Source: Dictyostelium discoideum (lineage: Eukaryota). Taken from it: DNA of 64,000 nt. A program made the position numbers and the translations under genes. Of this stretch, positions 1 through 56,208 are shown piece after piece. Each line of letters opens with the position of its first letter. The first letter of the stretch is position 1. The stretch lies in the NCBI GenBank assembly GCA_000004695.1, contig CM000150.2, positions 4,096,001-4,160,000 on the forward strand, in the 5' to 3' direction. Under the pieces are notes generated by a model. The model was not told the DNA's origin. It was given only the letters and a program-made list of their open reading frames with translations, and ran no database searches.

Positions 1-585
1 TAAAGAATTTACTTCTAAAATGTATGCTCTCAAAACTATGATAATGACTGCTTTTTATTATCACCTTTATCATTTCAGTTCATCCAATTTTGTATTACAC
101 AAATAATTATTTTCACAGTTTATAAAAAAAAAAGAAAAAAAGAAAAAAGAAAAAAAAAAAAAAAACAAAAATAATATGTATAAATATATAAATAAATATA
201 TTTATATCTACAAAAAAAAAAAAAAAATAACCACATAAAAAGAAAAACGTGATTAAAAAAAAAAAAAAAAAATTTTAAAAATATATATCTACAAAAATTA
301 ATTTTGACTAATAACCTAATTGTTATTGTCCGACTGTTTAAAAAATAAAAAGATAAAAAATAAAAGATTTCTATAACTATTTATTTCAAAAGAAAGATTA
401 ACAAGTTATTAAAATATATTAATTAGACCATCTATTTGTATAGATTAAAAAAATGAAATAATAATTGTTAAATTTATTTATTAATAATTTTTTTATTTTT
501 TTTATTTTTTTTTTTCTAAAAATTTTATTAATTTATAACCTTTAAAATAAATATTTTTTAAATAATTATATTTCATTAATTAAAA

Positions 586-767
586 ATGGATAAAAGTTTA
601 GCAGAAAAAATAAAAAATGTGGATATTACCCCAAAAGAAATTTCCCATTTTAAAACAAAGGGTTTTATTCAAATAGATGATGTTTTTGATGTTAATTTAG
701 TAGATCAAAAGTTGAAACACTTTTCGATGGAAAATTTCCAACTAATATATGGCCAGATGGTACTTAA

Positions 768-818
<51 letters not shown>

Positions 819-1420
819 TTTAATAATTATATTAGTAACCTTTCTTTATTAAATAAATTTTAGAATGGAATTATCGTAAAGGGTTATCAGTTGAAAATTC
901 AACAAGAGAAATTGTTAATATTTGGAAGTGTGATCCATTTTTTGCTAAAATTATATTTAATGAAAATATTGGAAAAATGATTTGCGATTTAATGGGATGG
1001 TCAGGATGTCGTTTAGCACAAGACGAGTTATTTTGGAAACCACATTTAGGTGGTAGTGTAGGGTATCATCAAGATGGACCATATTTAGATTTTTTACCAG
1101 CTGAAACTATTGCAATATGGGTACCATTAAATGATGTTTCAATTGAAAATGGTACACTAGAATATGCAACTGGAAGTCATAATTGGAAAACTCCAAGTGG
1201 TATAATAGATGATTTTCATAATCCATTAAAATTTAAACTAAAAATGGAGGATGCTGCCATGATTGAAGGAATTGAAAAACCAGATATTCATGTGGTAACT
1301 TTGAAAAGAGGTGGAGTATCATTTCATCATGGTAAATTATGGCATGGTTCTTCAAAGAATCCAAGTTCTACCAAAGAGATGTGCTTTTCATTTCATACCA
1401 GAAAATTGTGTATTCAATGA
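586..1420 (+). CDS. Phytanoyl-CoA dioxygenase family (PHYHD1-like) 2OG/Fe(II) oxygenase. Two exons, about 586..759 and about 864..1420, separated by an AT-rich intron. The C-terminus may continue in the +1 frame to 1571.
   Basis: Exon 2 translation ...REIVNIWKCDPFFAKIIFNENIGKMICDLMGWSGCRLAQDELFWKPHLGGSVGYHQDGPYLDF...WVPLNDVSIENGTLEYATGSHNW...GGVSFHHGKLWHGS... carries the H-x-D...H iron-binding facial triad and aligns with the human PHYHD1 core as I remember it. Exon 1 opens at an ATG after a poly-A tract. The intron 760..863 is nearly pure A/T. The splice phase at the junction does not resolve cleanly by eye. Confidence 0.7.
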
Positions 1421-1593
1421 TAATACTGGTTATTTTTATGGTCATTATAAATTCTTTGACAGTAATAGAGTTGAAGAATCATTCTTCCCAATTACTTATT
1501 CATCTTCAGGTAAAAGATCAAAGTGTTGTGATTATTTTTATTCTGATGATAGGATAATTAATAAATTTTAATTAAATATTGAAAGTATAAAAA

Positions 1594-1626
<33 letters not shown>

Positions 1627-2006
1627 AATAAAAATTAAATGTTTAGACTGCAAATCAATAACATTTATAAATTTAATTTCTTGTTAATTTAATTTTCAGG
1701 ATAAAAATATTATTTTAAATTTTTTTTTTCTGCCATATAAAAATCTCATTACGCAGCTCCCCTTAATTTTTTTAATCATAAAAAAAATTCTTTTTTTTAT
1801 TTTAAGATTTTTTTTTTATTTTTTTTTTTTAAAATATAGAAAAAGTTGGCACGTGGTTTAGATTTTTATATACTGATTCTTTGAAATGGTTTTTTTTTTT
1901 TTTTTTATTTTTTTTTTTTATTGTTTTTTTAAAACAAAAACCTTCTTTTTTCACTTTTACTTTTACTTTTTTTTTATTTTTTTATTTTATTTTATTTTTT
2001 TTAAAG

Positions 2007-2451
2007 ATGTCAAAAATATCAAATAAAATGAAAGCTTATGGGGGAATAGTATTCTTTTTTTTATTTATTTTTTTCAATAAAGTTAGTTGTCAATTGGTTA
2101 GAGATTCAATACCGAACCAATTGGATATAGAGAGTTTCTCACAACAACAAAGTTATTTATTTTATCAAGATACATCAAATTCAACAAAATGCTCTTATAC
2201 TTTAAGGTTTATTGTAAAAGATAACGATAGTGGTACATTAAGTTTAAAAAAACTTTTTTCAACAGATAGCCCAAATATTTTATACTCGACAAAAACTTCG
2301 ACATCAACGGTTTTAGTTGTTGAATTTAGTGGAATAATTCCTATTGGTTCCCACACTTCAAATTTAACGGCAATGTCATTATATCCACCAATTCGAATTG
2401 TCCAATCTGATTATAGTTTAACTTTAACTTGTTCATGTAATATTTTTTTGA

Positions 2452-2506
<55 letters not shown>

Positions 2507-5500
2507 ATAATAATAATAATTTATTTATAAAAAATAATAATAATAATAATTATATAAAATATTAATATTTTATTTTTCTTCTTATAAAAATAAATATAAA
2601 ATAAAAATAAATGATCAAAAAAAAATAAAAATTATAGTGGTTGATTCGTCAACATTAACAATAACAATTGATGATGTGATAAATTATGATACAAATATGG
2701 CATTTTATTCATCAATTAGAATTCATGGTATGGATTATCATAGATTTAATTCATTGGATTCTTTAGGTTCAGATATTTTTTTCCCATTCGCCAGAACTAA
2801 TATATTTGGATATAATTGGGATCCTTTAATATTTGAAAATCAAAGAAATTCAATTTTTACAATTTCAATTGTAGTTTCAGGTGTAATAATAAATTTAAAA
2901 ACAAAATCTTTTTATTTTAATGGTAAAAATCTATTTATCTTATTTATATTTAATATTATTGAAAAAAAAAAAAAAAAAAATTAATTAAATTATTATTATC
3001 ATAGTTCCATATCCAACAGCTCAAATTTATTATTTTTTTCCACAAAACATTATATCTACCCCTTTTAATGAATTCGGATTTCATTATTCCCCAGTGCTTT
3101 CTACCACTAGTAACACACAAACAGCAAAACCATATCAACTATTATTATCACCTAATAAATTATATACTTTTTCAAAACCAATTTCTGGTAAAAAAGGTAG
3201 AATGTCTTTTATTGCAGCTTTTCAGAATTCATATGGGTTAAATAACTTTTCACTTATCAGTCCACTTGAAGATCAGCCAAGAATATCATTACCTCTGAAT
3301 ATAAAAGGTACGTACTTTAATAATAATAATAATAATAATAAAAATAATAATAATGATTATTAATATTATTAACTGGGAAAAAAAAACTTTTAAAGAATTT
3401 TATAATGGTTCATATGGAAATCCTCAACTTATTTTGTCGTTATATGGTTTTGGTTCTATAAATATACCAACTTTGATACCATTATTTCAAGTGACATTTA
3501 CTGGTAGTTATTATAGATTTTTTGATAATCAATACAAGGTTGGAGTTGATAAACTTGATGCTGGTTGGCCATTTGGGTATATTAGTGGTAATCAAACAAC
3601 CTATGTTCACTCTGTTGACTTTTTAAGACCAATAAACTATTCAGCACTATCTATCATATATAGATTTGGAAGTACTTTACCAAATGAATTTTTTTATCAA
3701 TCTGTTGTAACCAACCTTGGTAAGTAAAATAACAATACTTTTTATTATTATTATTATTATTATTATTTAAACCTCTTGGTGATGAAATGCCATTATGATG
3801 ATTATTATTATTATTATTATTATTAATTAAAAACACATAATAAATTATTTACATTTAATTAAATTATTTTATAGTAACGGAAACAACCCAACCAATTTTG
3901 GTCAGTTATAGCTTCAAACGTTTAAAAGGAAAGAATTCAAATTATTTATTCACAGCAAATATAATTTCAAAGAATGGAGTAAAGAGAATTATATTTGATG
4001 ATATTGATTATGGTTTAAAAACATTAGTTTCAGGTTCAAATAAAAATGGTGTTTATGAAATTATATATACACCATCACAAAATTCATTCTCTGGGATAAT
4101 TTCTTTTTTATGTTATGACATTTATGAAAATAATTTCTACTATTTCCAAGACCAAATTGTTTCTTATGAACCATTTTTAGTTTTTAAAGTTCCTGATTGT
4201 CTTTCAAATTGTAGTTATTTTTATTTAAAATTTAAAAGTATATATAAATATATTAATTATTTGTTTTTTTTAATTTAGATATAAGCGTGGATAGTTTTGA
4301 TAACATCAGTTTCGCAAAGAATAATTTAAATTTATTAAATTCAGCAGGTTATAATACAATGTATTTAAATTCGAGTAAAATTGATCCTGATTCACAACTA
4401 GTACTAATTTTGATGGATCCAATTTCAAAATCATATCAAAGTGCTCAAGGTAATATTCTTTATGGTTCATTTCCAATTGTTTATGATTCAAATTTAAAAT
4501 TATTTACATGTGATTTCATTGTACCAAAAAATAATTTATTTGGTGAAGTTTCGTACTATATTAAATTTACAAATGGTGTTTTGACAAGTAATGAATTAGG
4601 ACCAAATACACCAAAATTATTAGTAAATGAAACATGTATGTATTTTTTTAATTTTTAAAAAATAAATAGTTTAAATTTTTATTTTTTTAACCTTTTTTTT
4701 TTTAATTAAATAAATTTAGATCTAGATAATCAAGGACCAATTTTTAGTTTATTAGTCCCGTTAAATAATGGAGTAATGGTTGATGATAATAGTAGGGAAT
4801 ATGGATATATTTTTAATATTACAGATGATCTTAATGGATTTAGTAGCGGTAGTATAACAGTAAAAGGTTCAATAGATAATTCAAAATATGTATTCAACTT
4901 TTCATTATCAGATGCAATGTATGGTAATAAATTTGAAAGTCAATATCAAATTTTAATTCCAGTTTCAAAACAATGTATATCACAAGTTTATATTATCACC
5001 AATGTAATTTTAAGAGATACAAATAATATTACATCAATTTATAATATTTATAGTAATAATCCAGACCCAACCATAACTCCATTTTTAAAATTTTATGATG
5101 ATGGTATTGGATCAACATATTTAAATATAATTTGTAATCCTCCTATACCAATTGATGAAGATTATCAACAATTAGTTTCTTTCAAACATTCAATTACAAA
5201 CTCAATTATTGATGTTGGTAAATTAAATAATTCAATTAGATTTGACTTTTCAATTGATACACCTAGAACAGGTATAAAAGATAATCAATTACCAATAGTT
5301 TATATAATTAGTGAAAAATTGGATAAAGTCGAATGCCTTTCAACTTTAGAACTAGTAGATAAAATATATGGAACTACAAATTACACATGTACAACTACAT
5401 TACCAATTGGTTTTGGTTATCCTGGTATTTTGATTTTTTCAATTTATGGTTTTATAAATAATGCAGGTTATTTTTTTGGTTATCCAACAGATACAATTGC

Positions 5501-6857
5501 TAAATTTTTTCCATCATCATATTATGTCAATATAAACTACCTTGTTGATGAAGAACCAATTATTACATCGACTGATAATATTTTTTCAACTGGTGGTAAT
5601 TTATTAATTTATGGTAAATCATTATCAAATACAAAACAAGTATCAATTTATTATTCTGAAACCAATGTACAAAGTACAATAGTTCAAGATGAAATATATG
5701 GATCAAGTGCAGTTTTAATCAATTCAATTTCGGAAACATCAAAACCATTTAAAATTCAAATAATTACAACTTCTGGTTTAAAATCAAATGAATATTGGGT
5801 AACTCCAATTTATTTTGAAACAACAACCCCAGTAATTCCAACTAATCCACCACAAAAATGTAGTGGTAATCCAGAATGTGGCGGTAAATCACAAGGTTAC
5901 TGTTCACCAAATGGTTGTATTTGTTTTTCACCTTGGATTGGTACAAGCTGTCAATCAAAAGTTATAGTTGTACCACCACCAATTGTAAATCCAAATGAAC
6001 CATCAACTAATATTATAACCAATTCAAGCAAAAGTGAAACATCATCGTTAGTTGGTGTAATTTCAATTGTTTCATTAAGAGAATTAGATCATAACAATAA
6101 AGTTATTAAAATTTTTAAATTTGAAAAATGGAATCAAACAAATTTAGAAAAGAATAAAAATATCTATTCAACAAGCATTAAATTTCAAGATAATAATAGT
6201 AATAACGATTGTTTTATAAATGTTGAAACTGAATGGTATGAAACATTAAGAAATATAACATTTGCAAATCAATTATTAGTAATGAATCCCTCAACATTAA
6301 AATATAATATAAACATTACAGCATATCCATTCCAATCGAAATTAAATACACTCCAATTAGTAATCAGAGCAAAACTAACTCAAAATGATTATAATGATGA
6401 TATATGCTCAAATCAAGAATTTGGTAAAACAGTTGCAGATAATTCAGATTTTATTCAATTATCAGTAAAAGATCATTCGTTATATGGTAGATTTGTTAAA
6501 AGAGGTATCGTAGATGGTAGAATTACATCAATTGGTAATGTTAAACTTAATGATTTAGATGATGAATCAAATTATTATACATCAGATTCATTCGTTGGTA
6601 TTGTAATTCCACAATACACAAATCTAATTCAACTAGATCCTGATTTTGGTTTATTGGTAGATAGTTCACCAACTGATTCAACATGTAAAAAAAGTGCATC
6701 ACTTTCAAAAGAAGCAAAGATTGGTATAATCGTAGGTTGTATTGGTTTTGTAATTGTTGTTGTAATAGTTGTAACTTTATGTGTAAAATATAAATATCAT
6801 ATTAGAAATTTAAAATCTGTTATTAAAATGAATCAAATCAAAGCGAATAAAAATTAA
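2007..6857 (+). CDS. Multi-exon gene of about 7 exons for a large secreted/type-I membrane protein. It has a signal peptide, beta-rich repeats (IPT/TIG-like, Tgr-like family guess), one EGF-like Cys-rich module, a single TM helix and a short basic cytoplasmic tail.
   Basis: Exon-sized ORFs lie in alternating frames at 2007-2430, 2633-2900, 3004-3310, about 3400-3719, about 3885-4200, 4287-4640 and 4718-6857. They are separated by A/T-only stretches with GT...AG ends. The N-terminus MKAYGGIVFFFLFIFF is signal-like. The last exon has CSGNPECGGKSQGYCSPNGCICFSPWIGTSCQSK (EGF-like), then IGIIVGCIGFVIVVVIVVTLCV (TM), then KYKYHIRNLK... It shares motifs (YTCT..LP.G.G...IL.SIYG; ...L.IYG...) with the genes at 47232-56208. 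Confidence 0.65.
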
Positions 6858-7220
6858 AATATTATTTCTATCTTTTTTTTTTTCAAATAAATAAATATTA
6901 TCTCCTTTTTTTTTTTTATTATTTTTATCTCTTTTTAGGTTTGAAAAAAAAAAAAAAAAAAATAATAATGTTATTTATCTTTTTTTTTTTCTTTTTTATC
7001 TCTTTTTTATCTCTTTTTTTATCTTATTTTTTTTAAAAAAAAAATAAATTTAACAATAAAAATAATTACTTTAAAAAACTTATTTTAACCAAAAAAAAAA
7101 AAAGAAAAAAATAAGAAAAAGATTTTTTGAGATAAAAATTTTTTTTTTTTTTTTTTGTGATGATTAATAATTTGAAGTTTTTTTTTTTATTTTTTTTTAT
7201 ATTTAATTCAAAAATTAATA

Positions 7221-8786
7221 ATGGATAGTAATAGTAATAATAATAATAATATTAATAATGATATTAAACCAAATGAAAAATTGTTTTTTTCAGTATGGAG
7301 AAATATTTTTTTAAAAAATAATATATTTGTTCAATTAAATTTATTAAAAAGTTATAAAAAAGTTTCTATACAAACTTTGGAAAATTTAAAAAATCAAAAA
7401 TATAAAAAATATATTGAAAAGATTGTTTATTATAGCGATGATAATATATTAGACGAAAATATTTTATTAGAATTCGATATTTTAAAAACTATTAAATTTA
7501 TGCATCAAGGGTTTGAATTGATTTCTCCATCAGTTTTACCAATTGGTTTAAAAAAGTTAATATTCCCAATAAAGAGTAACTCTTTAATTCATAATTTTAA
7601 AGATAATGAAACATGTAGTTTTTCATTGTTCCCAAGTTCAGTTACTGATGTTAGAAATGTTTATGCAAAGGATCCAATTATTTCAATTCCTTCAAATATT
7701 AAAAGAATTCATTTTAGGAGTATTTCTCAAAATGCATTGAATAAAAGTGATTTTAATAGTGGTGGTTTTGGTGGTGTTGGTGGAAATTCAATAACAGAAC
7801 TTGGATTTTATATTGATGAAAGTACAATTAAATTAAATTTTGGTATGATTCCATTTGGATTAATAAAAAGATTACATATGGAAACAATGTCATTAGATTT
7901 TAATAAATTACCAATATCATTAACACACTTGAAATTAGATATTAGAATGGAGATTGTAATAAATAATGTTTTGTATTTTTCATTTGGTAAACTTAAAAAA
8001 CTTGAATTAATTTCAAAAAATAAAATTGAAATTCATAATAATATGTTTCCTGAATCTCTCACTCATTTAAAAATGGGGTCACCATCTATAAGATTAGGTC
8101 AAAAATCACTACCATCAGGTTTATTATTTTTAATGGTTACAGATACTATCCAAGGTATGAATAATAATAATTGGTTACCCCTATCATTGAAAACATTAAT
8201 TGTAAAAGGCCATCCTAAAAGTGGTTGGTATGGTTACCAATTTAGTTCATTGATAATTCAACATGTTAATTTACCACCAAAACTTGTACATCTACAATTT
8301 GATGACAAAGGTTTTGGATATGGTGATAATCAAATACTTACACCTGGTTGCATCCCACGATCATTAACCTATTTAAATTTTGGTTCAAATTTTAATCAAG
8401 AAATTTACAAAGATGCACTTCCAAATTTAGTTGAAATCAATTTTGGTTCAAGATTTAATAGATATTTAGATCCAGGTGTACTTCCAATAAATTCATTGAA
8501 AAAATTAACTTTATCAACTGATTTCAATAAGAAACTTGAGATTGGTTCATTACCAGATTCAATAACTCATTTAACATTTGGTTATAATTATAATCAACCA
8601 ATAATATCATTACCATCCTCATTAACTTGCTTAGAATTAAATTGTCCAAATTATTCTCATAAAATTGATACTTCAAATTTATTCCCACCTTGTCTATCAA
8701 AATTAGTTTTATCAAAAAATTTTAAACAAAATGATTTAATTTCAAGAGATTGTTTTTATTCTATTGATAAAGTTTTAATTGAATAA
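7221..8786 (+). CDS. FNIP-repeat protein (Dictyostelium FNIP repeat family), single exon.
   Basis: There are repeated about 22-aa units with LP.SLTHL.FG..FNQ.I (LPISLTHLKLD, FPESLTHLKMG, IPRSLTYLNFGSNFNQEI, LPNLVEINFGSRFNRYL, LPDSITHLTFGYNYNQPI, LPSSLTCLELN). The N-terminus is Asn-rich. The ORF is uninterrupted at 521 aa. Confidence 0.85.
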   Translation: MDSNSNNNNNINNDIKPNEKLFFSVWRNIFLKNNIFVQLNLLKSYKKVSIQTLENLKNQKYKKYIEKIVYYSDDNILDENILLEFDILKTIKFMHQGFELISPSVLPIGLKKLIFPIKSNSLIHNFKDNETCSFSLFPSSVTDVRNVYAKDPIISIPSNIKRIHFRSISQNALNKSDFNSGGFGGVGGNSITELGFYIDESTIKLNFGMIPFGLIKRLHMETMSLDFNKLPISLTHLKLDIRMEIVINNVLYFSFGKLKKLELISKNKIEIHNNMFPESLTHLKMGSPSIRLGQKSLPSGLLFLMVTDTIQGMNNNNWLPLSLKTLIVKGHPKSGWYGYQFSSLIIQHVNLPPKLVHLQFDDKGFGYGDNQILTPGCIPRSLTYLNFGSNFNQEIYKDALPNLVEINFGSRFNRYLDPGVLPINSLKKLTLSTDFNKKLEIGSLPDSITHLTFGYNYNQPIISLPSSLTCLELNCPNYSHKIDTSNLFPPCLSKLVLSKNFKQNDLISRDCFYSIDKVLIE

Positions 8787-9354
8787 ATACAAATATAATA
8801 ATTTTAAATAATAAAAATCTTTTAATTTTGGGAATAAAAGGGGATGATTTTTTTTTTTAAAAAAATAAAAATAAATAAATATTCCCTCATTTTTCAAAAT
8901 AAAAAGACAATTACGAAATCTATAATAATTCATATTTAAAATAAATAGAATTAAATGAAAAAAATAAAAAAAAAGTTCTTTATTACAAGACAAAAAGTAA
9001 TAAAAAAAACTTTGTAAAGTTTTTTTTTTTTTTTTTGTTTTATCATACTTTTTTTTTTTTTTTTTTTTTTTAACCATTTTTCAATTTTTATTTATTTTAA
9101 TATTATAAAAAGTTGGTATTATTTTCTTTTTTTTTGAAACGATAAATATCTATATTTAAAAAGTCAACCGTTTGATATTTTGAAAAAAAAAAAAAAAAAT
9201 TAAAAAATTAAAAAATAAAAAAAAATTAAAAATAAAATATCTAAAAATACAAAGGAAAAAAAAAAAAAAAATAGATTAATTTCAAATAAAAAACATTAAA
9301 TTTCCAACTTTTTTCAATCACGCTCGATCATTTCCTTTTTTTTCTTCATCAAAT

Positions 9355-9420
9355 AATTTTAATTTTTTTAATTTTTTTAATTTTTTTAATTTTTTTAATT
9401 TTTTTAATTTTTTTTTTTTT
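9355..9420. repeat. Intergenic (AATTTTTTT)n minisatellite, about 7 units.
   Basis: ttaatttttttaatttttttaattttttt..., read directly from the sequence. Confidence 0.8.
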
Positions 9421-9624
9421 TTCAGACTTTATCCTTTCATTTTTGTGTGAGCCCTGCATATTTTTGTAACTGCTATCAAATTTTCAAATTATGCGTTGAA
9501 TTACCAAAAAAAATCTTTTTTTTTTTTTTTTTTTTTGACGTAAATATAAATAGTTTTTATTTTTAAACATTTCATTTTCCATAATTCATTAATAAAATAT
9601 ATTTATAAATAATTATAAAAACAA

Positions 9625-9654
<30 letters not shown>

Positions 9655-9658
<4 letters not shown>

Positions 9659-10522
9659 TTAAAGTCTTACCACTCATTTCTTTTATTTTAATCATATTAG
9701 CAGCTGTATGTACTATCATTGGTTTTTCAAGTATGTATTAATTTATTTGTCTTTATCTTTTTATTTTTAATTTTTTTTTTCTATTTTATTTTTTTTTTTT
9801 TTAATTTTTTTTTTTTTTTATTAATTTTTAAATCATTTTATTATTTAAGCTTATTGGTATCAAATAAAAATCGAGGGTGCTGATGGTGCAGTTATTGAAA
9901 CTTATTATAAATATAATAAAGTTAATGTTATTGTTTCAATTGATGGAGATGAAGTATCAGGAACAACTGGATATGATGAAGTAGATGGAGAATTCTCAGC
10001 TCAATTAAAATTCTATAAAGCTGCCTTAGCTATGGATATTTTAGCCTTTGTCAATTTATTCTTTTCAGCATGCTACTTGGGTTTTGCATTATTCAAAGGA
10101 ATTTCTCAAGCCAGTCAAACAAAATTTAAGAATTCATTAAATGGTGCAACTATATTTTTAATTATTGCTACATTTGTTGTATTAGGTTTACCAAAGGTAT
10201 TTTTTCAATAATTTTTTTATTTTTTTATTTTTTTTTTTATTCATTTCGTAAATTAACAATTCATTTCTATTTTTTTTAAAAGGCTCGTAGAGAGGATTGT
10301 GAAGATTATGCTAATGACAGTAGTTATAATTACTCTGGTAGCCAAGTTAAAGATATTTGTAGTATCGGAATTAATAAAAAATTCATTGGTAGTGAAACTG
10401 AAGTTGATGGTTCAAAATATTCATGGGGACCAACAACTGCTTGGATTGCCATTGTAATTGGTCTTGGTCTCACATTCTTTAACAATGTCTTTGTTTACAT
10501 TGCTCCAATTTTCAAAGACTAA
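9655..10522 (+). CDS. Small four-TM membrane protein in 3 exons (9655..9730, 9850..10196, 10283..10522), uncharacterised, with claudin/PMP22- or tetraspan-like topology.
   Basis: The ATG follows an A24 tract. Exon 1 encodes MVKVLPLISFILIILAAVCTIIGFS. The introns start GTATGT and GTATTT, end in AG, and are A/T-only. Phases are consistent (76+347+240 nt = 221 codons). The translation has four hydrophobic helices and two roughly 55-aa loops, the second loop carrying a Cys pair. The ORF track misses it because the exons lack internal ATG starts. Confidence 0.7.
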
Positions 10523-10602
10523 AGAATTTTTTTTAAAAAAAAAAAAAAAAAACAAAAAAAATAAATTAACAACTTGCAAAAATAAACAAATATGTTTATT
10601 AG

Positions 10603-10637
<35 letters not shown>

Positions 10638-10976
10638 ATTCTACATGTTTCTTTTGTTTATTTAATAATTTTTAATTTAAAATCTAACTAGGACTAATAA
10701 GTAGAACAAGAATCGATGATATATTATTTTACAATTTGCAAAATATATTTATTAGATTAAAATAATAAAAAATATATTTATTAGACAAAAAAAAAAAAAA
10801 TGAAAAAAAAAAAAATGAAAAAAAAAAAAATTTCTATATGTTTCTTATATTTATTTAATAATTTTATTATTTCAAATCCAACCAGAATCAATAAGTTGAA
10901 CCATAGTCGTGATAATTTATTTATTTTTTTTTTTTTTTTTTTTTTTTTTTATTTTTTATTTTTTTTTAAAAAATCC

Positions 10977-13690
10977 TTAATTAACCCAATCCAAATCATA
11001 TTTATATAATTTATTATTAGATAAAGATATTTTAAGGTGGTTTAATAAAATTGGATCGTTTTTAATGCTATTGATTTTGTTACTATTGTCATTATAAAAA
11101 TATTTTAGAATATGAATATTATTGTTTTTGATTGCATGAGTGATTGAGTAATTTGTAATTTTAAATTGATTTGGATAATAAGAGATAACCAAGTTACATA
11201 AATGAGTAATACCTAAAACAAATGCACTTATAAATATATTATTATTATCATTAATATACTGATTTTTTAGTTCTTCTTCATCGTCCTGTTGTTGTTGTTG
11301 AAGAGTATCTTCTTGAAAAATTATTTTAAATAAATTTTGATATTCACTTTGATTAAAAAGTTTTGATAATACATTAGACTGAACCTTTGATTTTTCAATA
11401 CTAATTAATTCATGTTCTTTAGTAGGATTATCAATTTCATCTATTTCAAATTGATGTAATAAATAATTATAAGTTTCTTTTAAAATTAATTTTTTAATAT
11501 CAGATGGTGTTGAAGGATTAATTAATTTTTTATAATTATCTTGATTTTTAATCTTTAAGAAATGCGATTGTAAGAATTCTAAAAATCTAACTTCAAATAG
11601 TTTTTTTGATTGATTAAAAACCATTGATTGAAATTTAAAAGGCTTTTTTACTCTTTCGAAATAATTCTCTAAAAAGAATTTTGATTCTAAATAACTATCA
11701 CAACTATTAACTAATTGAGGTGTTGAAGTAATAGTATTTAAAGATGAAATGGTGATTTCATAATTCTCTAAGATAAATTTAGAAATTTCAAAATTATTTT
11801 TAAATATTGATTCATCAAAAATTGCAGAATGAAATGCTGATTGGTAAAAATTAAATTCTATAAATCTTTGAATTTCATCTGTGTTCATTATTTTACAAGA
11901 TAAACTTATTACTTTTGGAGAGAAATCAAAAGAGTTTATTAAAACAACGGGTTTAATAAATAGATCTTCTTGTTGTTTGATTTTAGTTGTTGTTAAAGGT
12001 TGTTCAGTTGGAGGCATTAAAGGTAACTTTCTAATAGATTCATCTCTTAACTTACTTGCTGATAATAGTGAAAATGCTGGTACTTGATATAAATAAGTTT
12101 TCAAAGGGAATGTTGAACCTATTGGTACTTTTTCACGTAGACAATCAATGTGATCTTGAATGATTTCAAATTGATCAAAGAATAAATCTACTCTTTTAAT
12201 TAATAATAAATACTCTAATGTTAAATTCATAAATTCATGAAATTCATCAAGATAATGTGGGTATTCAATTATATTGATATAATTTAAAAATAATTGTGAA
12301 ATTAACATTTCAATAATTTTATCGAATGAATTGATATAATCACCACTACCACCATTATTATTTTTACCAAATATAAAATCAAATGTAAATTTATCAGATT
12401 CAAAATAATCAATAATGTCATAAACAGTTGGATCAATTTGATACTCGATTGAACAATTATAATATCTTTCTTTTGATTTTGAAAAAGGTTCAGTTATTCT
12501 TGGTATTGATAAAATGAATTTTATAAATTTGGTATCTCTAATTTGTAGGTAATAGAATGAATGATATAAAGTGTGTTTAATTGGTACTGAATTACTTTGA
12601 AATAGTGTATTAATTTCTATAATTTGTTCTTTTGTTACTTTCTTTGATTGAATTAATTTTTCAAAAATAAATTTAATTATAAGAATCAATGATTCAAATG
12701 ATTCGATTGGAATTGATTTTAATCGTTCAATTAATTTTATAATTATTGAATGTAATTCCTTTGCATTTGATTTTTCATCATGATAAATCGTTGTACTAAA
12801 AATATATCTTGGTGAATCATAAAATCTATCACCTTCACTATCACTAAAAGATATTACTTTATTTGAGTTGAATTGATTGGTAGTTTCCTCTTTTTTCTTA
12901 TCAAAAATTGTACTATTTATTATTAATTCAAAAATTGGTAAATCTAATGATAAAGTTGATTCTATTAATAGATTTTTTATAATATCAACTTCCATATTTT
13001 CAATATTTAATTTAATATCTGAATAAATTTTTGAATTTTTGATTTGATTAATAATTTCATTTTGAAATAATTTAAATGAACTTTTTGAAAAGTTTTTAAA
13101 ACCAATTTCATTAAAATATTCAATTAATTCTAATACTTTTGTTTCTGTTGTAGTTTTAGTTTCTGTTGTTGTTATTATTATTGTTTCTGTTGTTGCTGTA
13201 CTTGAAATTAATTTTTCACCATCTTCTTCAAATATTACTCCTAAAGAATTTAAATATTTCAAATTATCAATATTAAAATTGATTACTGAATTATACCAAA
13301 TGAAATTATATATGAGTTTCTTTAATTTCCCTGCACAACCACTACTACTGCCACTGCCATTGCTACTGCTGCCACTGCTACTGCTACTAGAATTTAATTT
13401 CGATTCACATAGATTTAAAAAGTATGATAATAATTCTACAGATTCAAATCTAAATGATAATATATTTTTTTTTTCAATTAAAAATGATTGAACAATCCAT
13501 TTATCATTATTTTCAGAAATCCAATCTAAAATTGATTTTTCTTTAATTATAATAATATCATTATCCTTTTTTTTTAAAATCTCAAATAAAATTGGATTCC
13601 ATTTACAATTCTCTAAATCTATTGGAAGTTGAGTTTTTAAACTACCATTCTCTTTTAATTCTAAAATTCTAAAAAATTCAATAAATTCAC

Positions 13691-13750
<60 letters not shown>

Positions 13751-14189: not shown

Positions 14190-14281
<92 letters not shown>

Positions 14282-47231: not shown

Positions 47232-47295
47232 ATGAAATTAATTTCAATAATTTTTTCCTTATTTTTAATAATCAATTTGGTTTTTTCTACAGGTA

Positions 47296-47327
<32 letters not shown>

Positions 47328-50300
47328 CAGAAAAATAAAATATTATTCAGTTTTAAATTATTTTAATAGTAAAAAAATCAATCAATTAAATAAATAAATC
47401 ACCGGAGGTACTCTTGTGTTACAAATTTGGTTTCACAATTATCATATTTTAATTTATTTTAGAATTTTTTTTTTTTTTTTTTTTCTAATTTTTTTTTTTT
47501 TTAATAATTTAAAAATAATAATAATAATATTAATATAATAATAAAAATCATTTAAAAGATCCAACAATTGTTAGTTTTAGAAAGCCAGTTGAAAAAGTAT
47601 ATCCAAGTGAATATTGTTTGCCATCTTTCACTATATTGATTAATTATCCAGATCCAATCCAATATAATTATCAATTAGGTTTATATGATAGGAGTGGAGG
47701 GTATGGTGGCAGCATGCCATCTGCCGTAAATGGAACCTTATATCTTTTTACACTTACACATAAAGTTCCAATTGGTAAAAATCAACCAGTTTCTTTGTAT
47801 ATCCAAGATACCTCAAAAAATCCATGGTTTACTTTTGATTTCAATAACTATACTACCTATGATTGCGATCCACTTCCACCTGTTACTATGAAATCAAAAC
47901 AAAATACTTGGATTAAAACTAGTGGCCAATATTCCAATTTAATTTGGTACCATATGGTTGAAGTTTCAGGTTTAGATAAATCAGCTCCATACGATGCTTT
48001 TACATGTAATGTTCCAAAGCCATTTATTTGTATGTTCCAAGAGTTTCTTAATGGTCCAAAACCAATCAATTTTTATTTCCAAGTTGGAATTTATACGACA
48101 GATGTAAACTTCGCCCCATTCAATGTAACTGTTACAGATAAACTAGGTAAAGTTTTACTTAATAGTCTTTTTGATGGTTTAAGTGCACCAGCAAACCCAC
48201 CTGTTTCAATTAGATCCTTAGAAAATTATCCAATCAATGGTTCAACTGTTACTAAAAATGAAATGGTTAATGATGCAATGTATATTATGAATATCATAAA
48301 CAAAAATGCTCTTTGTGGTATTTCATCACCAAAAGATTTTTTGATTTCAAATATATTAATCCCAGTTTTAGGTACACCTGCAAATGCTTCTTACATTGGT
48401 TTCTCATCTTTTAACTATCAAAATAGTCCAATTAAATCCCATGTTCAGATCATTGATAGTCAAGGTACAAAAAGAATTGGTATTGATAATGTGCTTTTTG
48501 TTAATCGTAAGTATTTATATTTTTATTTAGATTTTTTTTTATTTTTTATATATACTAATTATAATTTTGTATTTATTATTTTAAAATAGCAAAATCTTAT
48601 GATAATGTCATTGAAAATGTTCAAAATGCAACCTATGTTAAAAGCTCTAATATTAATAAAACTTTAATTAATATTAAGGCTGATGTTTCATTTAATCCAA
48701 AAGCTACTTTAACAAGTAGCTTTTCAACTTCTTTATACCAAACAGTGTTAGCATATCCATATGGTTATTCAAATGGTACAGTTAAATACCATTCAGTTTC
48801 ATTGTCATCTGCATCTCCAGAGTATTCCACTTCTTCAAATTCATATATAATTTTAGGCTCTCCATCTGAAATCGGATCCGGTAATTCATCACTAATCACA
48901 GTTAATCCAAATTCAACAATAGGTAAGAATTTATCTTTTATAAAATTACTTTATAAACATCGGCTTATATTAATCATTTTATCATATATTTTTTAATAAT
49001 ATTGTTATTATGCTTTAGAAACAAAAATACCACAACTTTTGAAAGTTGAAACCGTTTTCCTTTCATATGAAAAAGTACTTACCAGAGTTTTTGCTAAAGA
49101 TGTTGATTCTGGTATTTCATTTTTGTATTTATCAAATTTAAATAAAGTTTCCTCTGCCGATTTAGTATATGGTGATAATTTCAATGGTGTTTATGAATCT
49201 GTTGAAACATTTACCACCATGTATGGCAATGAAAGACCAACCGTTTCAATCTATGATAATGCTGGTAATAATATTCAATACAATAATATGCAACCAACAT
49301 TCGATACATCATTCAATATGATCCCTGAATACCCTGCTTACAGTATGTATTTTTTAAATAATATTAATTTCTTTTTAAAAAAAAAAAAACAAACTACTAA
49401 ATTATTAATAAAATTACTTTATTATAGCAATGATTAAAAACCAAGCCAATTTAGACCCATACACTTTCACTGGTTTTGAATTTAAGTACAATGATGTTGA
49501 TGTTTCAAATGGTCCATTCAATAATACTTTATGTATGAACTTTGCAGGTTCCAATAAAACAATGACTCCACGTTTCTTACAATTTTCTTTAGCATTAAAT
49601 CCGGAAAAGGCATCATTAGATAACGCCACACCAGGCTCATGGGATGAAGTCAAAGGTATGTTTTGTATGGATTTCCAAATTCCAGCAAGAATTTTCACTG
49701 GTGAATATACATATGCTGTTCTCATTCCACCATTCGTTTATGACTCTTACTATTTTGCTATTTCAGTTGGTAGTAAAGCTCAATTAAGAGTTAACTCAGG
49801 TTTTGCTGATCAAATGCCACCTATCATTACTGAATTCTCTTCATATCCATCAAATGCTGTTAATGTCACTCAAGATACTGTTGTCGGTTGGAATATTAGA
49901 ATTGAAGATTCTCCAAATGGTTTAGCAAGTGGTGAATTTAATATCACAAGTGATTTCGATTTAGAACCATATAGAATTAAGATTACTCCAGCCAATGCTG
50001 TATCTGGTGATATTTTCAGTTCTACATATCAATTAAGAATTCCAATTAAAGCAAACACTTGTAGATCTCAATCATTTAGAATTTCATCAGCATCAATTAC
50101 TGATACAATGGGTCATACTTCAGTTTTACCATCTTCTGGAAATGTTAATCCATTATATAAATTCTTAGAATCACCACACTTGGTTTTAAATATTACTTGT
50201 CCACAAGCTATCATCGATAATACCCCACCATCTTTAATTAGTTTCTCAACTGTTAGTTCAATCGAAGTTGGTGCTTATAAAGATTTTAGAAATGTTACAT

Positions 50301-51175
50301 TTACCTTCAAAACATCAGATTCTGGTTCTGGTATTTCATCAAGACACAATCCAAAAATCTATTTATCATCAGGTGAATTTGATCAAATTTCAAAGATTAG
50401 TACATTGGTATCCAATGTAAATGGTGTCGCTACTTATACCTGCACTATTGAATTACCATATGGTTATGGTTCATATAATGGAATTCTTGTTTCAATATAT
50501 GGTATTGTTGATAATAAATTAAATATTAATGGTTATTCATCAGTTGATCTCCAACAACTCGGTTTCCAAAATACAATTAAAGTTTTATATTCTGATGTAC
50601 CAGTACTTGATTACACAAGTTCAATTAAATCAACTGAATCATCATTGACTATCTATGGTCATAAATTTGGTATCGATAGAAGTAAAGTTACATTACAAGT
50701 TGATTATATGAAGGGTCAAGGTTGGAAGAATACAACAATCTCATTCTTTTCTGGTATTATTTTAATGACTGATAATATTACACCAACATCAACACCATTC
50801 TACGTTCGTGTTATTGTAGATGGTAAAATTTCAAATCAACTTTTAGTAGTTCCAATCATTGTTGGTGATAGTCCATGTAGTTATGAAGTTATTCAATCAA
50901 TAGTTGCTACTTGGATCGATAGTGAAAAATATCCATATCTTCAAGCATCTATCACTATTAAAAATACAGGTACAAGACCAATTAAAGCATTTAGTTTCAT
51001 TATTGAAAAAATTGCTTATGGTCAAATTTGGGGTGTTGATGCAAATGGTAATAATAGATACACTTTACCATCATATAATTTAATCATTAATCCTCGTGAT
51101 CAATATAGTTTCGGTTATATCATTCAAGGTACAACTGTTGCTGATCTCAAACAAGTCACTTATACTTGTCTTTAA
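47232..51175 (+). CDS. Secreted beta-repeat protein, tandem copy A. 5 exons (47232..47292, 47559..48506, 48590..48922, 49019..49342, 49428..51175), 1137 aa.
   Basis: The signal peptide MKLISIIFSLFLIINLVFST runs into a GTAAGT donor. Every junction is GT..AG with a consistent phase, and the total is 3414 nt = 1138 codons. There is no TM or GPI-like tail (...DLKQVTYTCL*). The repeats resemble those of the 2007..6857 gene. Confidence 0.8.
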
Positions 51176-52272: not shown

Positions 52273-52490
52273 ATGAAATCAATTTCAATAATTTTTTCCT
52301 TATTTTTAATAATCAATTTGGTTTTTTCTGCTGGTAAGTTTTTTTTTTTTTTATTTTTAAAATAAATAAAAAATTATTTAGTTTCAAATTATTTTAATAT
52401 TAATGATTAATGAATCAATTAAAAAAATATTAATGGAATTAACTATTGTGAAATTACAAATTTGGTTTCACAATTATCATATTTTCATTC

Positions 52491-52522
<32 letters not shown>

Positions 52523-55500
52523 TTATTTTTCATTTTTTAAATAATTTAAAAATAATAATATTAATGTAAATTTTTTATTATTATTTTAAAGATCCAACAA
52601 TTGTTAGTTTTAGAAAGCCAGTTGAAAGAGTATATCCAGGTGAATATTGTTTGCCTTCTTTCACTGTATTGGTCAATTATCCAGATCCAATCCAATATAA
52701 TTATCAATTAGGTTTATTTGATAAGAGTGGAGGATATGGTAGCAACATACCATCTGCTGTAAATGGAACCTTATATCTTTTTACACTTACCCATAAAGTT
52801 CCAATTGGTAAAAATCAACCAGTTTCTTTGTATATTCAAGATTACTCAAAAAACCCATGGTTTACTTTTGATTTCAATAACTATACTACCTATGATTGCG
52901 ATCCACTTCCACCTGTTACTATGAAATCAAAACAAAATACTTGGATTAGATCAAGTGGCCAATATACCAATTTAGTTTGGTACCATATGGTTGAAGTTTC
53001 AGGTTTAGATAAATCAGCTCCATACGATGCTTTTACATGTAATGTTCCAGAACCATTTTATTGTGCATTCCAAGAGTTTCTTAATGGTCCAAAACCAATC
53101 AACTATTATTTCCAAATTGCAATTCGTAAAAGTGATGTAAATTTCACCCCATTCAATGTAACTATTACAGATAAACAAGGTAAAGTTTTACTTAATAGTC
53201 TTTTTGATGGTTTAAGTGCACCAGCAAACCCACCTGTTTCAATTAGATCCTTAGAAAATTATCCAATCAATGGTTCAACTGTTACTAAAAATGAAATGGT
53301 TAATGATGCAATGTATATTATGAATATCATAAACAAAAATGCTCTTTGTGGTATTTCATCACCAAAAGATTATTTTATTGGAAATACATTAATCCCAGTT
53401 TTAGGTACACCTTCAAATGCTACTTACATTGGTTTCTCATCTTTTTTATATCAAAATGGTCCAATTGAATCTCATGTTCAAATCATTGATAGTCAAGGTA
53501 CAAAAAGAATTGGTATTGATAATGTGCTTTTAATTAATCGTAAGTTTAAAAAATTATAATAATTATTTTAATCTTTTTATATAATCACACTAATTATATT
53601 TTAATTATTTTTATTATTAAACAGCAAAATCTTATGATAATGTCATTGAAAATGTTCAAAATGCAACCTATGTTAAAAGCTCTAATATTAATAAAACTTT
53701 AATTAATATTAAGGCTGATGTTTCATTTAATCCAAAAACTTCTCACACAAGTAGCTTTTTATCTTCTCAAAGAGAAACCGTCTTAGATTATCCATATGGT
53801 TATTCAAATGGTACAATTAAATACCATTCAGTTTCATTCTCAAAAACATCTCCAGAGTATTCCACTTCTTCAAATTCATATATGAGTATAAACTCTCCAT
53901 CTGATATCGGAAATGGTAATTCATCACTAATTGAAATTGCTACAAATTCAACTATAGGTAAGAATTAATATTATTATTTAAAAAAGATAAATTATTAAAT
54001 ATATTAATCATTCGATCATATTTATTATTATTATTATTATTCTTAAGATTCCAAAATACCACAACTTTTGAAAGTTGAAACTGTATTCCTTTCATATGAA
54101 AAAGTACTTGTCAGAATTTTTGCTAAAGATGTTGATTCTGGTATTTCATATTTGCATTCTACAAATTTGCATAAAATTTCCCCAGCCGATTTAGTATATG
54201 GTGATAATTTCAATGGTGTTTATGAAACTGTTGAAACATTAGCAACTATGTATGGTAATGAAAGACCAACCGTTTCAATCTATGATAATGCTGGTAATAA
54301 TATTCAATACAATAGTATGCAACCAACATTCGATACATCATTCAATATGATCCCTGAATACCCAGTTTACAGTATGTATTTTTAATATTAAAAAAAAAAA
54401 AAAAAAAAAAAAAACAAACAAAACATTAAATAAATTATTAATAAAATTACTTTATTATAGCAATGATTAAAAACCAAGCCAATTTAGACCCATACACTTT
54501 CACTGGTTTTGAATTTAAGTACAATGATGTTGATGTTTCAAATGGTCCATTCAATAATACTTTATGTATGAACTTTGCAGGTTCTAATAAAACAATGACT
54601 CCACGTTTCTTACAACTTCCTTTAGCATTAAATCCAGAAAAGGCATCATTAGATAACGCCACACCAGGCTCATGGGATGAAGTCAAAGGTATGTTTTGTA
54701 TGGATTTCCAAATTCCAGCAAGAATTTTCACTGGTGAATATACATATGCTGTTCTCATTCCACCATTCGTTTATGACTCTTACTATTTTGCTATCTCAGT
54801 TGGTAGTAAAGCTCAATTAAGAGTTAACTCAGGTTTTGCTGATCAAATGCCACCTATCATTACTGAATTCTCTTCATATCCATCAAATGCTGTTAATGTC
54901 ACTCAAGATACTGTTGTCGGTTGGAATATTAGAATTGAAGATTCTCCAAATGGTTTAGCAAGTGGTGAATTTAATATCACAAGTGATTTCGATTTAGAAC
55001 CATATAGAATTAAGATTACTCCAGCCAATGCTGTATCTGGTGATATTTTCAGTTCTACATATCAATTAAGAATTCCAATTAAAGCAAACACTTGTAGATC
55101 TCAATCATTTAGAATTTCATCAGCATCAATTACTGATACAATGGGTCATACTTCAGTTTTACCATCTTCTGGAAATGTTAATCCATTATATAAATTCTTA
55201 GAATCACCACACTTGGTTTTAAATATTACTTGTCCACAAGCTATCATCGATAATACCCCACCATCTTTAATTAGTTTCTCAACTGTTAGTTCAATCGAAG
55301 TTGGTGCTTATAAAGATTTTAGAAATGTTACATTTACCTTCAAAACATCAGATTCTGGTTCTGGTATTTCATCAAGACACAATCCAAAAATCTATTTATC
55401 ATCAGGTGAATTTGATCAAATTTCAAAGATTAGTACATTGGTATCCAATGTAAATGGTGTCGCTACTTATACCTGCACTATTGAATTACCATATGGTTAT

Positions 55501-56208
55501 GGTTCATATAATGGAATTCTTGTTTCAATATATGGTATTGTTGATAATAAATTAAATATTAATGGTTATTCATCAGTTGATCTCCAACAACTCGGTTTCC
55601 AAAATACAATTAAAGTTTTATATTCTGATGTACCAGTACTTGATTACACAAGTTCAATCAAATCAACTGAATCATCATTGACTATCTATGGTCATAAATT
55701 TGGTATCGATAGAAGTAAAGTTACATTACAAGTTGATTATCAGAATGGTCAAGGTTGGAAGAATACAACAATCTCATTCTTTTCTGGTATTATTTTAATG
55801 ACTGATAATATTACACCAACATCAACACCATTCTATGTTCGTGTAATCGTAGACGGTAAAATTTCAAATCAACTTTTAGTAGTTCCAATCGTTGTTGGTG
55901 ATAGTCCATGTAGTTATGAAGTTATTCAATCAATAGTTGCTACTTGGATCGATAGTGAAAAATATCCATATCTTCAAGCATCTATCACTATTAAAAATAC
56001 AGGTACAAGACCAATTAAAGCATTTAGTTTCATTATTGAAAAAATTGCTTATGGTCAAATTTGGGGTGTTGATGCAAATGGTAATAATAGATACACTTTA
56101 CCATCATATAATTTAATCATTAATCCTCGTGATCAGTATAGTTTTGGTTATATCATTCAAGGTACAACTGTTGCTGATCTCAAACAAGTCACTTATACTT
56201 GTCTTTAA
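52273..56208 (+). CDS. Secreted beta-repeat protein, tandem copy B. 5 exons (52273..52333, 52592..53539, 53625..53957, 54048..54371, 54461..56208), 1137 aa.
   Basis: Same exon lengths and phases as copy A, offset by 5041 bp. The last exon is near-identical to copy A, while exons 2-3 are clearly diverged. Confidence 0.8.

What the first reader, a model, noticed from the sequence alone, without database searches (positions are those of the whole stretch)
2007..6857. Seven-exon surface glycoprotein gene with EGF module and TM anchor that shares repeat motifs with the secreted tandem genes 45 kb away
The exon chain encodes a signal peptide, repeated beta-rich units (motifs YTCTTTLPIGFGYPGILIFSIYG and GGNLLIYGKSLS), one EGF-like module and a TM anchor. 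The same motifs occur in the tandem genes at 47232-56208 (YTCTIELPYGYGSYNGILVSIYG, SLTIYGHKFG), but those genes lack the TM and EGF parts. This suggests a lineage-specific surface/secreted family, perhaps IPT/TIG or Tgr-like, with membrane-bound and soluble members in one region. Families of this kind in D. discoideum include polymorphic adhesion and allorecognition genes.
Basis: partly seen in the sequence, partly recalled or inferred. Interest (0 to 1): 0.55.

Follow-up and report, generated by a model that had tools for sequence, protein, structure and literature searches.

The report
ComC-family surface glycoprotein gene, Dictyostelium
The finding is a real, intact seven-exon gene for a membrane-anchored surface glycoprotein of a large social-amoeba-specific family named after ComC, and the two tandem genes 45 kb away are secreted relatives that end in a cellulose-binding module instead of a membrane anchor; this is an uncharacterised member of a catalogued family, not a new kind of system.

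Summary
Window 2007-6857 (+) holds a seven-exon, GT-AG spliced gene of 1390 aa. It encodes a signal peptide, a roughly 420-aa head with no known domain, DUF7743, DUF7035, DUF7034, a divergent IPT/TIG-like domain, one EGF-like module (DUF7949), the ComC supersandwich domain, one TM helix and a 23-aa tail.

The window is D. discoideum AX4 chromosome 1. The tandem genes are DDB_G0270058 and DDB_G0270060 (exact protein matches).

The shared motifs reflect real homology: BLASTP E = 2e-32, 26% identity over about 560 aa. The tandem genes replace EGF-supersandwich-TM with a cellulose-binding CBM49 module.

- The family is lineage-specific: 739 representatives, and all ten sampled are dictyostelid or unnamed.
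- It has membrane-bound and secreted members.
- The GGNLLIYG motif lies in a remote IPT/TIG-like domain.

However, the family is ComC-type, not Tgr-type. I found no allorecognition-like hypervariability. dN/dS is 0.39 overall, 0.5-1.0 in the head exons and 0.18 near the membrane, and neighbouring genes range from 0.13 to 0.39.

The most likely function is a surface adhesion or communication receptor with a variable head on a conserved stalk. This is inferred, not shown. The finding is ordinary and of modest interest.

The parts
2007..2436 (+). Gene A exon 1. It holds the start codon at 2007 (orthologues start at the second Met, 2028). The signal peptide is aa 1-28 (2007-2090). The variable head begins here.
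   Evidence: ORF chain. Junctions agree with orthologues. The hydrophobic N-terminus GGIVFFFLFIFF is shown.
2638..2922 (+). Gene A exon 2, part of the variable N-terminal head. No Pfam domain.
   Evidence: no Pfam family at E <= 10 for aa 8-454.
3005..3307 (+). Gene A exon 3, part of the variable head.
   Evidence: dN/dS is 0.65 against ACTFIW.
3396..3719 (+). Gene A exon 4, part of the variable head. It has an in-frame 5-aa deletion relative to the orthologues.
   Evidence: Protein identity to ACTFIW is 78%, the most diverged exon.
3875..4210 (+). Gene A exon 5. It carries DUF7743 (aa 449-543, 3877-4161), the first copy of the repeated beta-sandwich unit.
   Evidence: Pfam E = 5.3e-9. hhalign of DUF7743 against DUF7035 gives 98.4%.
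4279..4635 (+). Gene A exon 6, the 'mid' domain (aa about 560-680). It is conserved across the family but has no Pfam model in this copy.
   Evidence: A family HMM matches 149 of 171 sequences.
4720..6857 (+). Gene A exon 7, ending at the stop codon. It carries DUF7035 (4725-5138), DUF7034 (5172-5534, holds YTCTTTLPIGFGYPGILIFSIYG), the IPT/TIG-like domain (5538-5822, holds GGNLLIYGKSLS), EGF-like DUF7949 (5859-5963), ComC supersandwich (5988-6656), the TM helix (6720-6785) and a 23-aa basic tail.
   Evidence: Pfam hits. TIG-likeness. The AF2 model is all-beta and matches tandem Ig/FN3/IPT arrays. TM helix.
47232..51175 (+). T1 = DDB_G0270058 (Q55CG8), 1137 aa, secreted paralogue. Exons are 47232-47292, 47559-48506, 48590-48922, 49019-49342 and 49428-51175. 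The core shared with gene A is 49078-50857. CBM49 is 50885-51124.
   Evidence: Exact protein match. Pfam DUF7743, DUF7035, DUF7034 and CBM49. BLASTP to gene A gives E = 2e-32. No TM segment.
52273..56208 (+). T2 = DDB_G0270060 (Q55CG7), 1137 aa, tandem copy of T1 (92.7% protein identity). Exons are 52273-52333, 52592-53539, 53625-53957, 54048-54371 and 54461-56208. CBM49 is 55918-56157.
   Evidence: Exact protein match. T1-T2 identity profile. The Pfam scan (DUF7035, DUF7034, CBM49) was run on T1's last exon, which is 99% identical to T2's. qPCR primers from PMC7078664 map to 52610-52720.

Best explanation
Gene A encodes a type I membrane glycoprotein of the dictyostelid-specific ComC-like family.

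Shown: After a signal peptide, the ectodomain runs from the distal end to the membrane as follows.
- A roughly 420-aa head that has no Pfam domain and is recognisable only in close orthologues.
- A conserved stalk of beta-sandwich domains. DUF7743, DUF7035 and DUF7034 are diverged copies of one unit, with a 'mid' domain between DUF7743 and DUF7035. A remote IPT/TIG-like domain follows.
- One EGF-like module and the ComC supersandwich domain.
- A single TM helix and a 23-aa basic tail with no signalling domain.

Shown: T1 and T2 share the stalk from DUF7743 through the IPT-like domain. They have their own unrelated head. In place of EGF-supersandwich-TM they carry a C-terminal CBM49 module, so they are secreted.

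Inferred: The membrane protein presents a fast-evolving, ligand-specific head on a rigid glycosylated stalk. It would act in cell-cell or cell-matrix adhesion or contact signalling, by analogy with ComC, a signal-peptide-plus-TM EGF protein needed for normal aggregation and intercellular communication. Because the tail is so short, any signalling would need a partner protein.

Inferred: T1 and T2 would be tethered to cellulose in the extracellular matrix through CBM49. The same family scaffold is therefore displayed on two different supports.
For: Gene model: It is intact, and its junctions are conserved in seven genomes.

Domains: Pfam gives DUF7743 (5.3e-9), DUF7035 (1.7e-33), DUF7034 (3.5e-26), DUF7949 (1.4e-14) and ComC_SSD (7.8e-15, 55.5 bits against a cut-off of 24). 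There is a single C-terminal TM segment.

Homology to T1/T2: BLASTP E = 2e-32. T1 has CBM49 at 80.7 bits against a cut-off of 23.4.

Family size and layout: A profile finds 739 representatives, 248 of them at E <= 1e-30. The dominant architecture among the 171 sequences examined (top representatives plus other fetched proteins) is the same as gene A's. Only 14 of 171 end in CBM49. All names in the sample of ten are dictyostelid.

Variable head on a conserved stalk: 99.5% of pairs are BLAST-detectable in the core, against 5.7% in the heads.

Selection: Purifying selection is strongest near the membrane (dN/dS 0.18) and weakest in the head exons (0.5-1.0).

Structure: The AF2 model of D1-D3 is all-beta, and its best matches are tandem Ig/FN3/IPT arrays in receptors and adhesins.

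ComC: It is described as 'has EGF domains, signal + TM, group 4 only' (PMC4931340), with an aberrant-aggregation mutant (PMC2873529) and a role in intercellular communication (PMC8865844).

CBM49: These proteins are abundant in the cellulose matrix of late development (PMC12821622).
Against: - No expression, localisation or binding data for gene A were available, so the function rests on architecture and on one characterised family member.
- I could not retrieve the ComC sequence. The link to ComC rests on the Pfam model named after it, not on a direct alignment.
- The head could not be modelled (mean pLDDT 40.7), so its nature is unknown.
- The D1-D3 model is only moderate (pLDDT 66, pTM 0.39).
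- Gene A's exact protein is absent from the protein collection. I therefore cannot say how, or whether, the reference annotation treats it.
- T1 and T2 rise in vegetative cells exposed to Klebsiella. That does not fit a purely late-developmental matrix role.
Confidence: 0.8

Rival explanations
1. Tgr-like polymorphic allorecognition or adhesion protein: an IPT/TIG-repeat surface protein whose variable ectodomain mediates kin discrimination.
For: - One domain is a remote IPT/TIG relative.
- One family member weakly hits Ig_TgrO1 (E = 0.028).
- The head exons evolve fastest (dN/dS 0.5-1.0).
- Gene A has the highest dN (0.043) of the genes tested at this locus.
- Gene A is about 2.4 times more diverged in protein than T1/T2 between the same strains.
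Against: - There is no array of TIG domains, and gene A itself gives no TIG hit at E <= 10.
- The domain set is ComC-type.
- dN/dS is below 1 in every segment.
- Neighbouring unrelated genes reach similar protein divergence (87.9-97.5% identity).
- The comparison strain is globally diverged (dS about 0.1), so the 9% difference is not polymorphism within a population.
- There is no paired receptor-ligand gene next to it.
Confidence: 0.05
2. Gene A is a decaying or unexpressed family copy (a pseudogene), as happens in large lineage-specific families.
For: - Its exact protein, with either start codon, is not in the 15-billion-protein collection, while T1 and T2 are.
- In an AX4-like assembly and in a wild strain it appears only inside fused gene models.
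- It has an AX4-specific 5-aa deletion in exon 4.
Against: - The reading frame is fully open over 1390 codons.
- All six GT-AG junctions are conserved in seven genomes.
- All indels are in frame.
- dN/dS is 0.39 overall and 0.18 in the membrane-proximal third. This indicates purifying selection.
Confidence: 0.05
3. Gene A is mainly a matrix or particle-binding receptor, for example for extracellular matrix glycans or bacterial surfaces during feeding, rather than a cell-cell communication molecule.
For: - Its secreted paralogues carry a carbohydrate-binding module.
- Those paralogues are induced about 10-fold by Klebsiella in growing cells.
- Structural neighbours of the stalk include bacterial surface glycan-binding proteins built from IPT/Ig domains (6e57 and 5e7g).
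Against: - Gene A itself has no recognisable carbohydrate-binding module.
- No expression data for gene A were found.
Confidence: 0.1

Closest known systems
ComC (D. discoideum 'communication mutant C') and the uncharacterised 'EGF-like domain-containing proteins' that carry Pfam ComC_SSD (PF22933)
   Same: Both have a signal peptide, an EGF-like module, the ComC supersandwich domain and a single TM helix. Distribution is dictyostelid-restricted. Gene A matches the Pfam model named after ComC at 55.5 bits (cut-off 24). Its overall layout is the commonest one in the family.
   Different: Gene A's 420-aa head is recognisable only in its close orthologues. No phenotype is known for gene A. I could not align it directly with the ComC sequence.
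Dictyostelium CBM49 cellulose-binding matrix proteins (for example celB, st15, ecmC and ecmD, as listed in PMC12821622)
   Same: T1 and T2 have a signal peptide and a C-terminal CBM49 (81 bits). They are therefore expected to bind cellulose in the matrix.
   Different: Their bodies are the ComC-family stalk (DUF7743-DUF7035-DUF7034-IPT-like). This combination is rare even within the family (14 of 171 sequences, mostly their own orthologues). Gene A has no CBM49.
TgrB1/TgrC1 and other Dictyostelium IPT/TIG surface proteins
   Same: They are type I surface glycoproteins built of Ig-like beta-sandwich domains. One gene A domain is a remote IPT/TIG relative.
   Different: Tgr proteins are arrays of IPT/TIG domains detectable by Pfam, and they are extremely polymorphic. 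Gene A has at most one cryptic IPT-like domain, different repeat units, an EGF module and a supersandwich domain. It shows no exceptional divergence.
Metazoan and bacterial adhesins or receptors built of tandem Ig/FN3/IPT domains (NCAM, cytokine receptors, plexin IPT region, Bacteroides SGBP-B)
   Different: Sequence identity is only 6-14%, and there is no evidence of common descent beyond the fold. The model confidence is moderate.

Membership tests
ComC-like dictyostelid surface proteins (Pfam ComC_SSD architecture) | ComC supersandwich domain (PF22933) next to the membrane | tested here: met
   aa 1102-1324, E = 7.8e-15, 55.5 bits against a cut-off of 24.
ComC-like dictyostelid surface proteins (Pfam ComC_SSD architecture) | EGF-like module (DUF7949) preceding the supersandwich | tested here: met
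   aa 1059-1093, E = 1.4e-14. The six-Cys pattern CSGNPECGGKSQGYCSPNGCICFSPWIGTSC is present. The equivalent module in a relative hits EGF_2.
ComC-like dictyostelid surface proteins (Pfam ComC_SSD architecture) | Stalk of DUF7743, DUF7035 and DUF7034 domains | tested here: met
   All three are above the Pfam cut-offs. The same order occurs in most of the 171 relatives.
ComC-like dictyostelid surface proteins (Pfam ComC_SSD architecture) | Signal peptide plus a single C-terminal TM helix (type I topology) | tested here: met
   Hydropathy shows only aa 1342-1371 above threshold, plus a short hydrophobic N-terminus. No dedicated signal-peptide predictor was available.
ComC-like dictyostelid surface proteins (Pfam ComC_SSD architecture) | Role in developmental cell-cell communication or aggregation | not testable with these tools
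   Known only for comC mutants (PMC2873529, PMC8865844).
IPT/TIG domain (PF01833) | Sequence match to the TIG profile | tested here: inconclusive
   Gene A's domain gives no hit at E <= 10. T1's domain gives E = 0.017, 15.6 bits, below the cut-off of 20.9. Across the family, 16 of 70 copies hit TIG at E <= 0.1 (best 1.4e-4) and no other Pfam family recurs. A profile has IPT/TIG protein 5e7g as its best PDB match at E = 0.0036. This indicates remote homology, not formal membership.
Tgr (TgrB1/TgrC1-type) allorecognition proteins | Ectodomain made of several recognisable IPT/TIG repeats | tested here: not met
   No TIG hit in gene A. The domains are DUF7743/7035/7034, EGF-like and ComC_SSD.
Tgr (TgrB1/TgrC1-type) allorecognition proteins | Exceptional sequence polymorphism relative to the genome background | tested here: not met
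   dN/dS is 0.39 and dS 0.11, against neighbours at dN/dS 0.13-0.39 and dS 0.05-0.13. Protein identity of 91% lies within the neighbours' range of 88-97.5%. Only divergent assemblies were compared, not a population sample.
CBM49 cellulose-binding proteins (applies to T1/T2 only) | C-terminal CBM49 module (PF09478) | tested here: met
   T1 aa 1042-1121, E = 1e-22, 80.7 bits against a cut-off of 23.4. The Pfam scan was run on T1 only; T2's last exon is 99% identical to T1's. The module is absent from gene A.

The most novel reading that the evidence does not exclude
The ComC-family scaffold may be a two-support display system. The same conserved stalk would be anchored either in the plasma membrane (gene A and most of the family) or on cellulose fibres through CBM49 (T1/T2). 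Matrix-bound and membrane-bound members would then interact through their stalks or heads to couple cells to the cellulose sheath or to the macrocyst wall. In that reading, the hypervariable heads would form a diversified recognition repertoire that no one has studied.
Probability: 0.1. Interest if true: 0.55.

Novelty: new member of a known kind. Interest (0 to 1): 0.25.

Why it matters
Dictyostelium has no cadherins or integrins of the animal type. Its multicellular stage relies on lineage-specific surface proteins, and only a few of them (Tgr, ComC, SadA, SibA, csA) have been studied. This locus shows that one large family of that kind has a fast-diverging head on a conserved stalk. It also shows that the anchor was swapped from a membrane helix to a cellulose-binding module. 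That gives a simple, testable idea about how cells and their cellulose matrix could be linked. It does not reveal a new kind of system. The domains already have Pfam models, the tandem genes are annotated in the reference genome, and the gene's function remains untested.

Tried and rejected
- **Alignment-based homologue search:** The profile search in the word-indexed database returned nothing. The two single-sequence searches returned only close orthologues or fragments. I therefore could not retrieve the ComC sequence itself or count AX4 paralogues by name.
- **Exact look-up of gene A:** It failed with either start codon. I guessed neighbouring DDB_G numbers to find its dictyBase identifier, without success, because identifiers are not sequential here.
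- **AlphaFold model of the head:** The model of the head plus DUF7743 plus mid region, built on the orthologue P0001 with seven sequences, was too poor to use (mean pLDDT 40.7). No fold search was run on it.
- **AFDB fold search:** The library was not installed.
- **Hyper-polymorphism idea, rejected:** The 91% identity to a 'D. discoideum' protein first looked striking. It reflects a globally diverged assembly, with dS about 0.1 in neighbours too.
- **Other family copies in the window:** Only three exist.
Full report
**Source and gene model**

The window has about 22% G+C. Two of its predicted proteins are exact matches to D. discoideum AX4 chromosome 1 proteins DDB_G0270058 and DDB_G0270060. 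The window is therefore the AX4 reference or a near-identical strain. An AX4-like assembly is 99.7% identical over 18.8 kb.

In 2007-6857 the three forward frames hold a chain of open segments. These join through GT-AG introns into one 1390-codon frame. The exons are 2007-2436, 2638-2922, 3005-3307, 3396-3719, 3875-4210, 4279-4635 and 4720-6857.

A homologue search returned full-length annotated proteins of 1376-1389 aa from seven related Dictyostelium genomes, at 91-64% identity. A more distant D. purpureum protein of 1335 aa (30% identity) was also returned. The seven align collinearly across all six junctions, and every indel is in frame. They start at the second Met (2028). The seven-exon observation and its coordinates are correct.

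**What the protein contains**

Pfam gives these matches:
- DUF7743, aa 449-543
- DUF7035, aa 681-818
- DUF7034, aa 830-950
- DUF7949, aa 1059-1093, a six-cysteine EGF-like module
- ComC supersandwich domain, aa 1102-1324

Hydropathy shows one strongly hydrophobic stretch at aa 1342-1371, followed by a 23-aa basic tail. There is a short hydrophobic N-terminus typical of a signal peptide. There are 20 N-glycosylation sequons. The first 420 or so residues after the signal peptide match no Pfam family, even at E <= 10.

**Relation to the tandem genes**

The genes at 47232-51175 (T1) and 52273-56208 (T2) each model as five exons and 1137 aa.

BLASTP of gene A against T1 gives E = 2e-32, with 26% identity over gene A 483-1042 and T1 468-1032.

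T1 carries DUF7743, DUF7035 and DUF7034, then a C-terminal CBM49 cellulose-binding module. T1 and T2 have no TM segment, and T1 has no EGF-like hit. The heads of gene A and T1 show no similarity. No other family member lies in the window.

**Repeats and the IPT/TIG question**

Profile-profile comparison of domain alignments built from 171 family sequences shows internal repeats. DUF7743 and DUF7035 are homologous (98.4%, E = 6e-15), as are DUF7035 and DUF7034 (95.9%, E = 5e-9). The stalk therefore contains three diverged copies of one beta-sandwich unit.

The segment after DUF7034 (aa 952-1046) holds GGNLLIYGKSLS and is a separate domain. The evidence on it is as follows:
- Gene A's copy gives no TIG hit, and T1's copy gives E = 0.017.
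- Of 70 diverse family copies, 16 hit Pfam TIG at E <= 0.1 (best 1.4e-4), and no other Pfam family recurs.
- A profile of the domain has an IPT/TIG protein as its best PDB sequence match (5e7g, E = 0.0036), followed by other IPT/TIG and E-set entries.

I read this domain as a remote IPT/TIG relative.

An AlphaFold model of DUF7035-DUF7034-IPT-like is all-beta but only moderate (six sequences, pLDDT 66). It matches tandem Ig/FN3/IPT arrays in receptors and adhesins. That supports an Ig-like stalk but does not resolve the subtype.

**The family**

A profile of the shared core, run against 1.84 billion representative proteins, finds 739 at E <= 1e-3 and 248 at E <= 1e-30. Ten sampled members are from D. 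discoideum, D. firmibasis, D. purpureum and Heterostelium, plus one unnamed environmental sequence.

Among the 171 sequences examined (the top representatives plus other fetched proteins), the commonest layout is that of gene A. Only 14 end in CBM49, and most of those are T1/T2 orthologues.

In 70 members of gene-A-like size, 99.5% of pairs are BLAST-detectable in the core but only 5.7% in the head. The family is thus a conserved stalk carrying highly diversified heads.

ComC gives its name to the supersandwich model. It is described as a signal-plus-TM protein with EGF domains, restricted to group 4 dictyostelids (PMC4931340). Its mutants aggregate aberrantly (PMC2873529), and it has a role in intercellular communication (PMC8865844).

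**Is it polymorphic like allorecognition genes?**

The best hit is labelled D. discoideum yet is only 91% identical. That assembly is diverged throughout the locus:
- Flanking DNA is 85-97% identical.
- Neighbouring proteins are 88-97.5% identical.
- Synonymous divergence is 0.05-0.13 in neighbours and 0.11 in gene A.

Gene A has dN/dS 0.39 overall, 0.5-1.0 in exons 1-5 and 0.18 in the EGF-supersandwich-TM part. Neighbours range from 0.13 to 0.39. Gene A does have the highest dN of the genes tested. It is also about 2.4 times more diverged than T1/T2 between the same strains. This fits a fast-evolving head under relaxed or mildly diversifying selection. It does not fit the extreme pattern expected of an allorecognition gene. 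A population sample was not available.

**Most likely mechanism**

Shown: a type I topology, a glycosylated Ig-like stalk, a variable head, a short tail, and secreted paralogues whose anchor is a cellulose-binding module.

Inferred: gene A acts at the cell surface in adhesion or contact-dependent communication, using its head for ligand specificity. It would rely on a partner for signalling, because the tail has no domain. T1 and T2 would be held on cellulose in the matrix.

Proteins with CBM49 are numerous in the late-development secreted proteome (PMC12821622). However, T1 and T2 are also induced about ten-fold in growing cells exposed to Klebsiella. They are also listed under the GO term 'sexual reproduction' (PMC7078664 supplement). 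Their time of action is therefore open.

**Verdict**

It is wrong in pointing to Tgr-type allorecognition proteins.

The gene is an uncharacterised member of a catalogued dictyostelid family in a reference genome. The one mildly new point is the explicit pairing of membrane-anchored and cellulose-anchored versions of the same stalk, together with the hypervariable heads.

Noticed in passing
window 46592-51213 and 51624-56247: T1 and T2 lie in a tandem duplication of about 5 kb that is 91% identical overall. The stretch 49547-51046 and its T2 counterpart (last exon: DUF7035 through the IPT-like domain, up to the start of CBM49) is 98-100% identical, including a 750-nt run without a difference. 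The 5' exons are only 77-95% identical. The three related strains examined (ACTFIW, ACTFIR, ACTFIY) each carry two copies, so the duplication is old. The 3' half looks homogenised by gene conversion.
   Followed up: partly
window 47232-56208 (DDB_G0270058, DDB_G0270060): In the supplement of PMC7078664, both genes rise by about log2 3.4-3.6 in growing cells exposed to Klebsiella pneumoniae. Both also appear in the gene list for GO 'sexual reproduction'. DDB_G0270060 was used there as qPCR marker K1, and its primers map to 52610-52720.
   Followed up: partly
window 2007-6857; L002 1115-9638: Gene A's protein is not in the 15-billion-protein collection with either start codon. In an AX4-like assembly it is part of a 2161-aa fused gene model. 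In a wild strain it is fused with the upstream PhyH gene (P0022, 1647 aa). How the AX4 reference annotates it could not be established.
   Followed up: partly
L001 (GCA_054859355.1) against window 1-17700: An assembly labelled Dictyostelium discoideum differs from AX4 by synonymous divergence of about 0.05-0.13 across every gene of this locus. That is far more than expected within one species and suggests a cryptic lineage.
   Followed up: no
window 23223-28000, minus strand: Two long ORFs (1152 and 448 aa) in a stretch of raised G+C (30-35%) and strong skew. The larger has a reverse transcriptase domain (RVT_1). This is probably a non-LTR retrotransposon insertion.
   Followed up: no
window 10980-15224 and 16721-21610, minus strand: Two very large ORFs (1415 and 1630 aa) have no Pfam domain. 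They are paralogues at both ends (38% and 37% identity) and flank a small PC4-like gene.
   Followed up: no
window 43051-45930, plus strand: A 960-aa open frame lies directly upstream of T1. It has no Pfam match and no similarity to gene A or T1/T2.
   Followed up: no
P0006 and P0007 (D. firmibasis RB653_006774 and RB653_006775): The gene A orthologue is tandemly duplicated in D. firmibasis, judging by consecutive locus tags on one contig, with both copies 64% identical to gene A.
   Followed up: no
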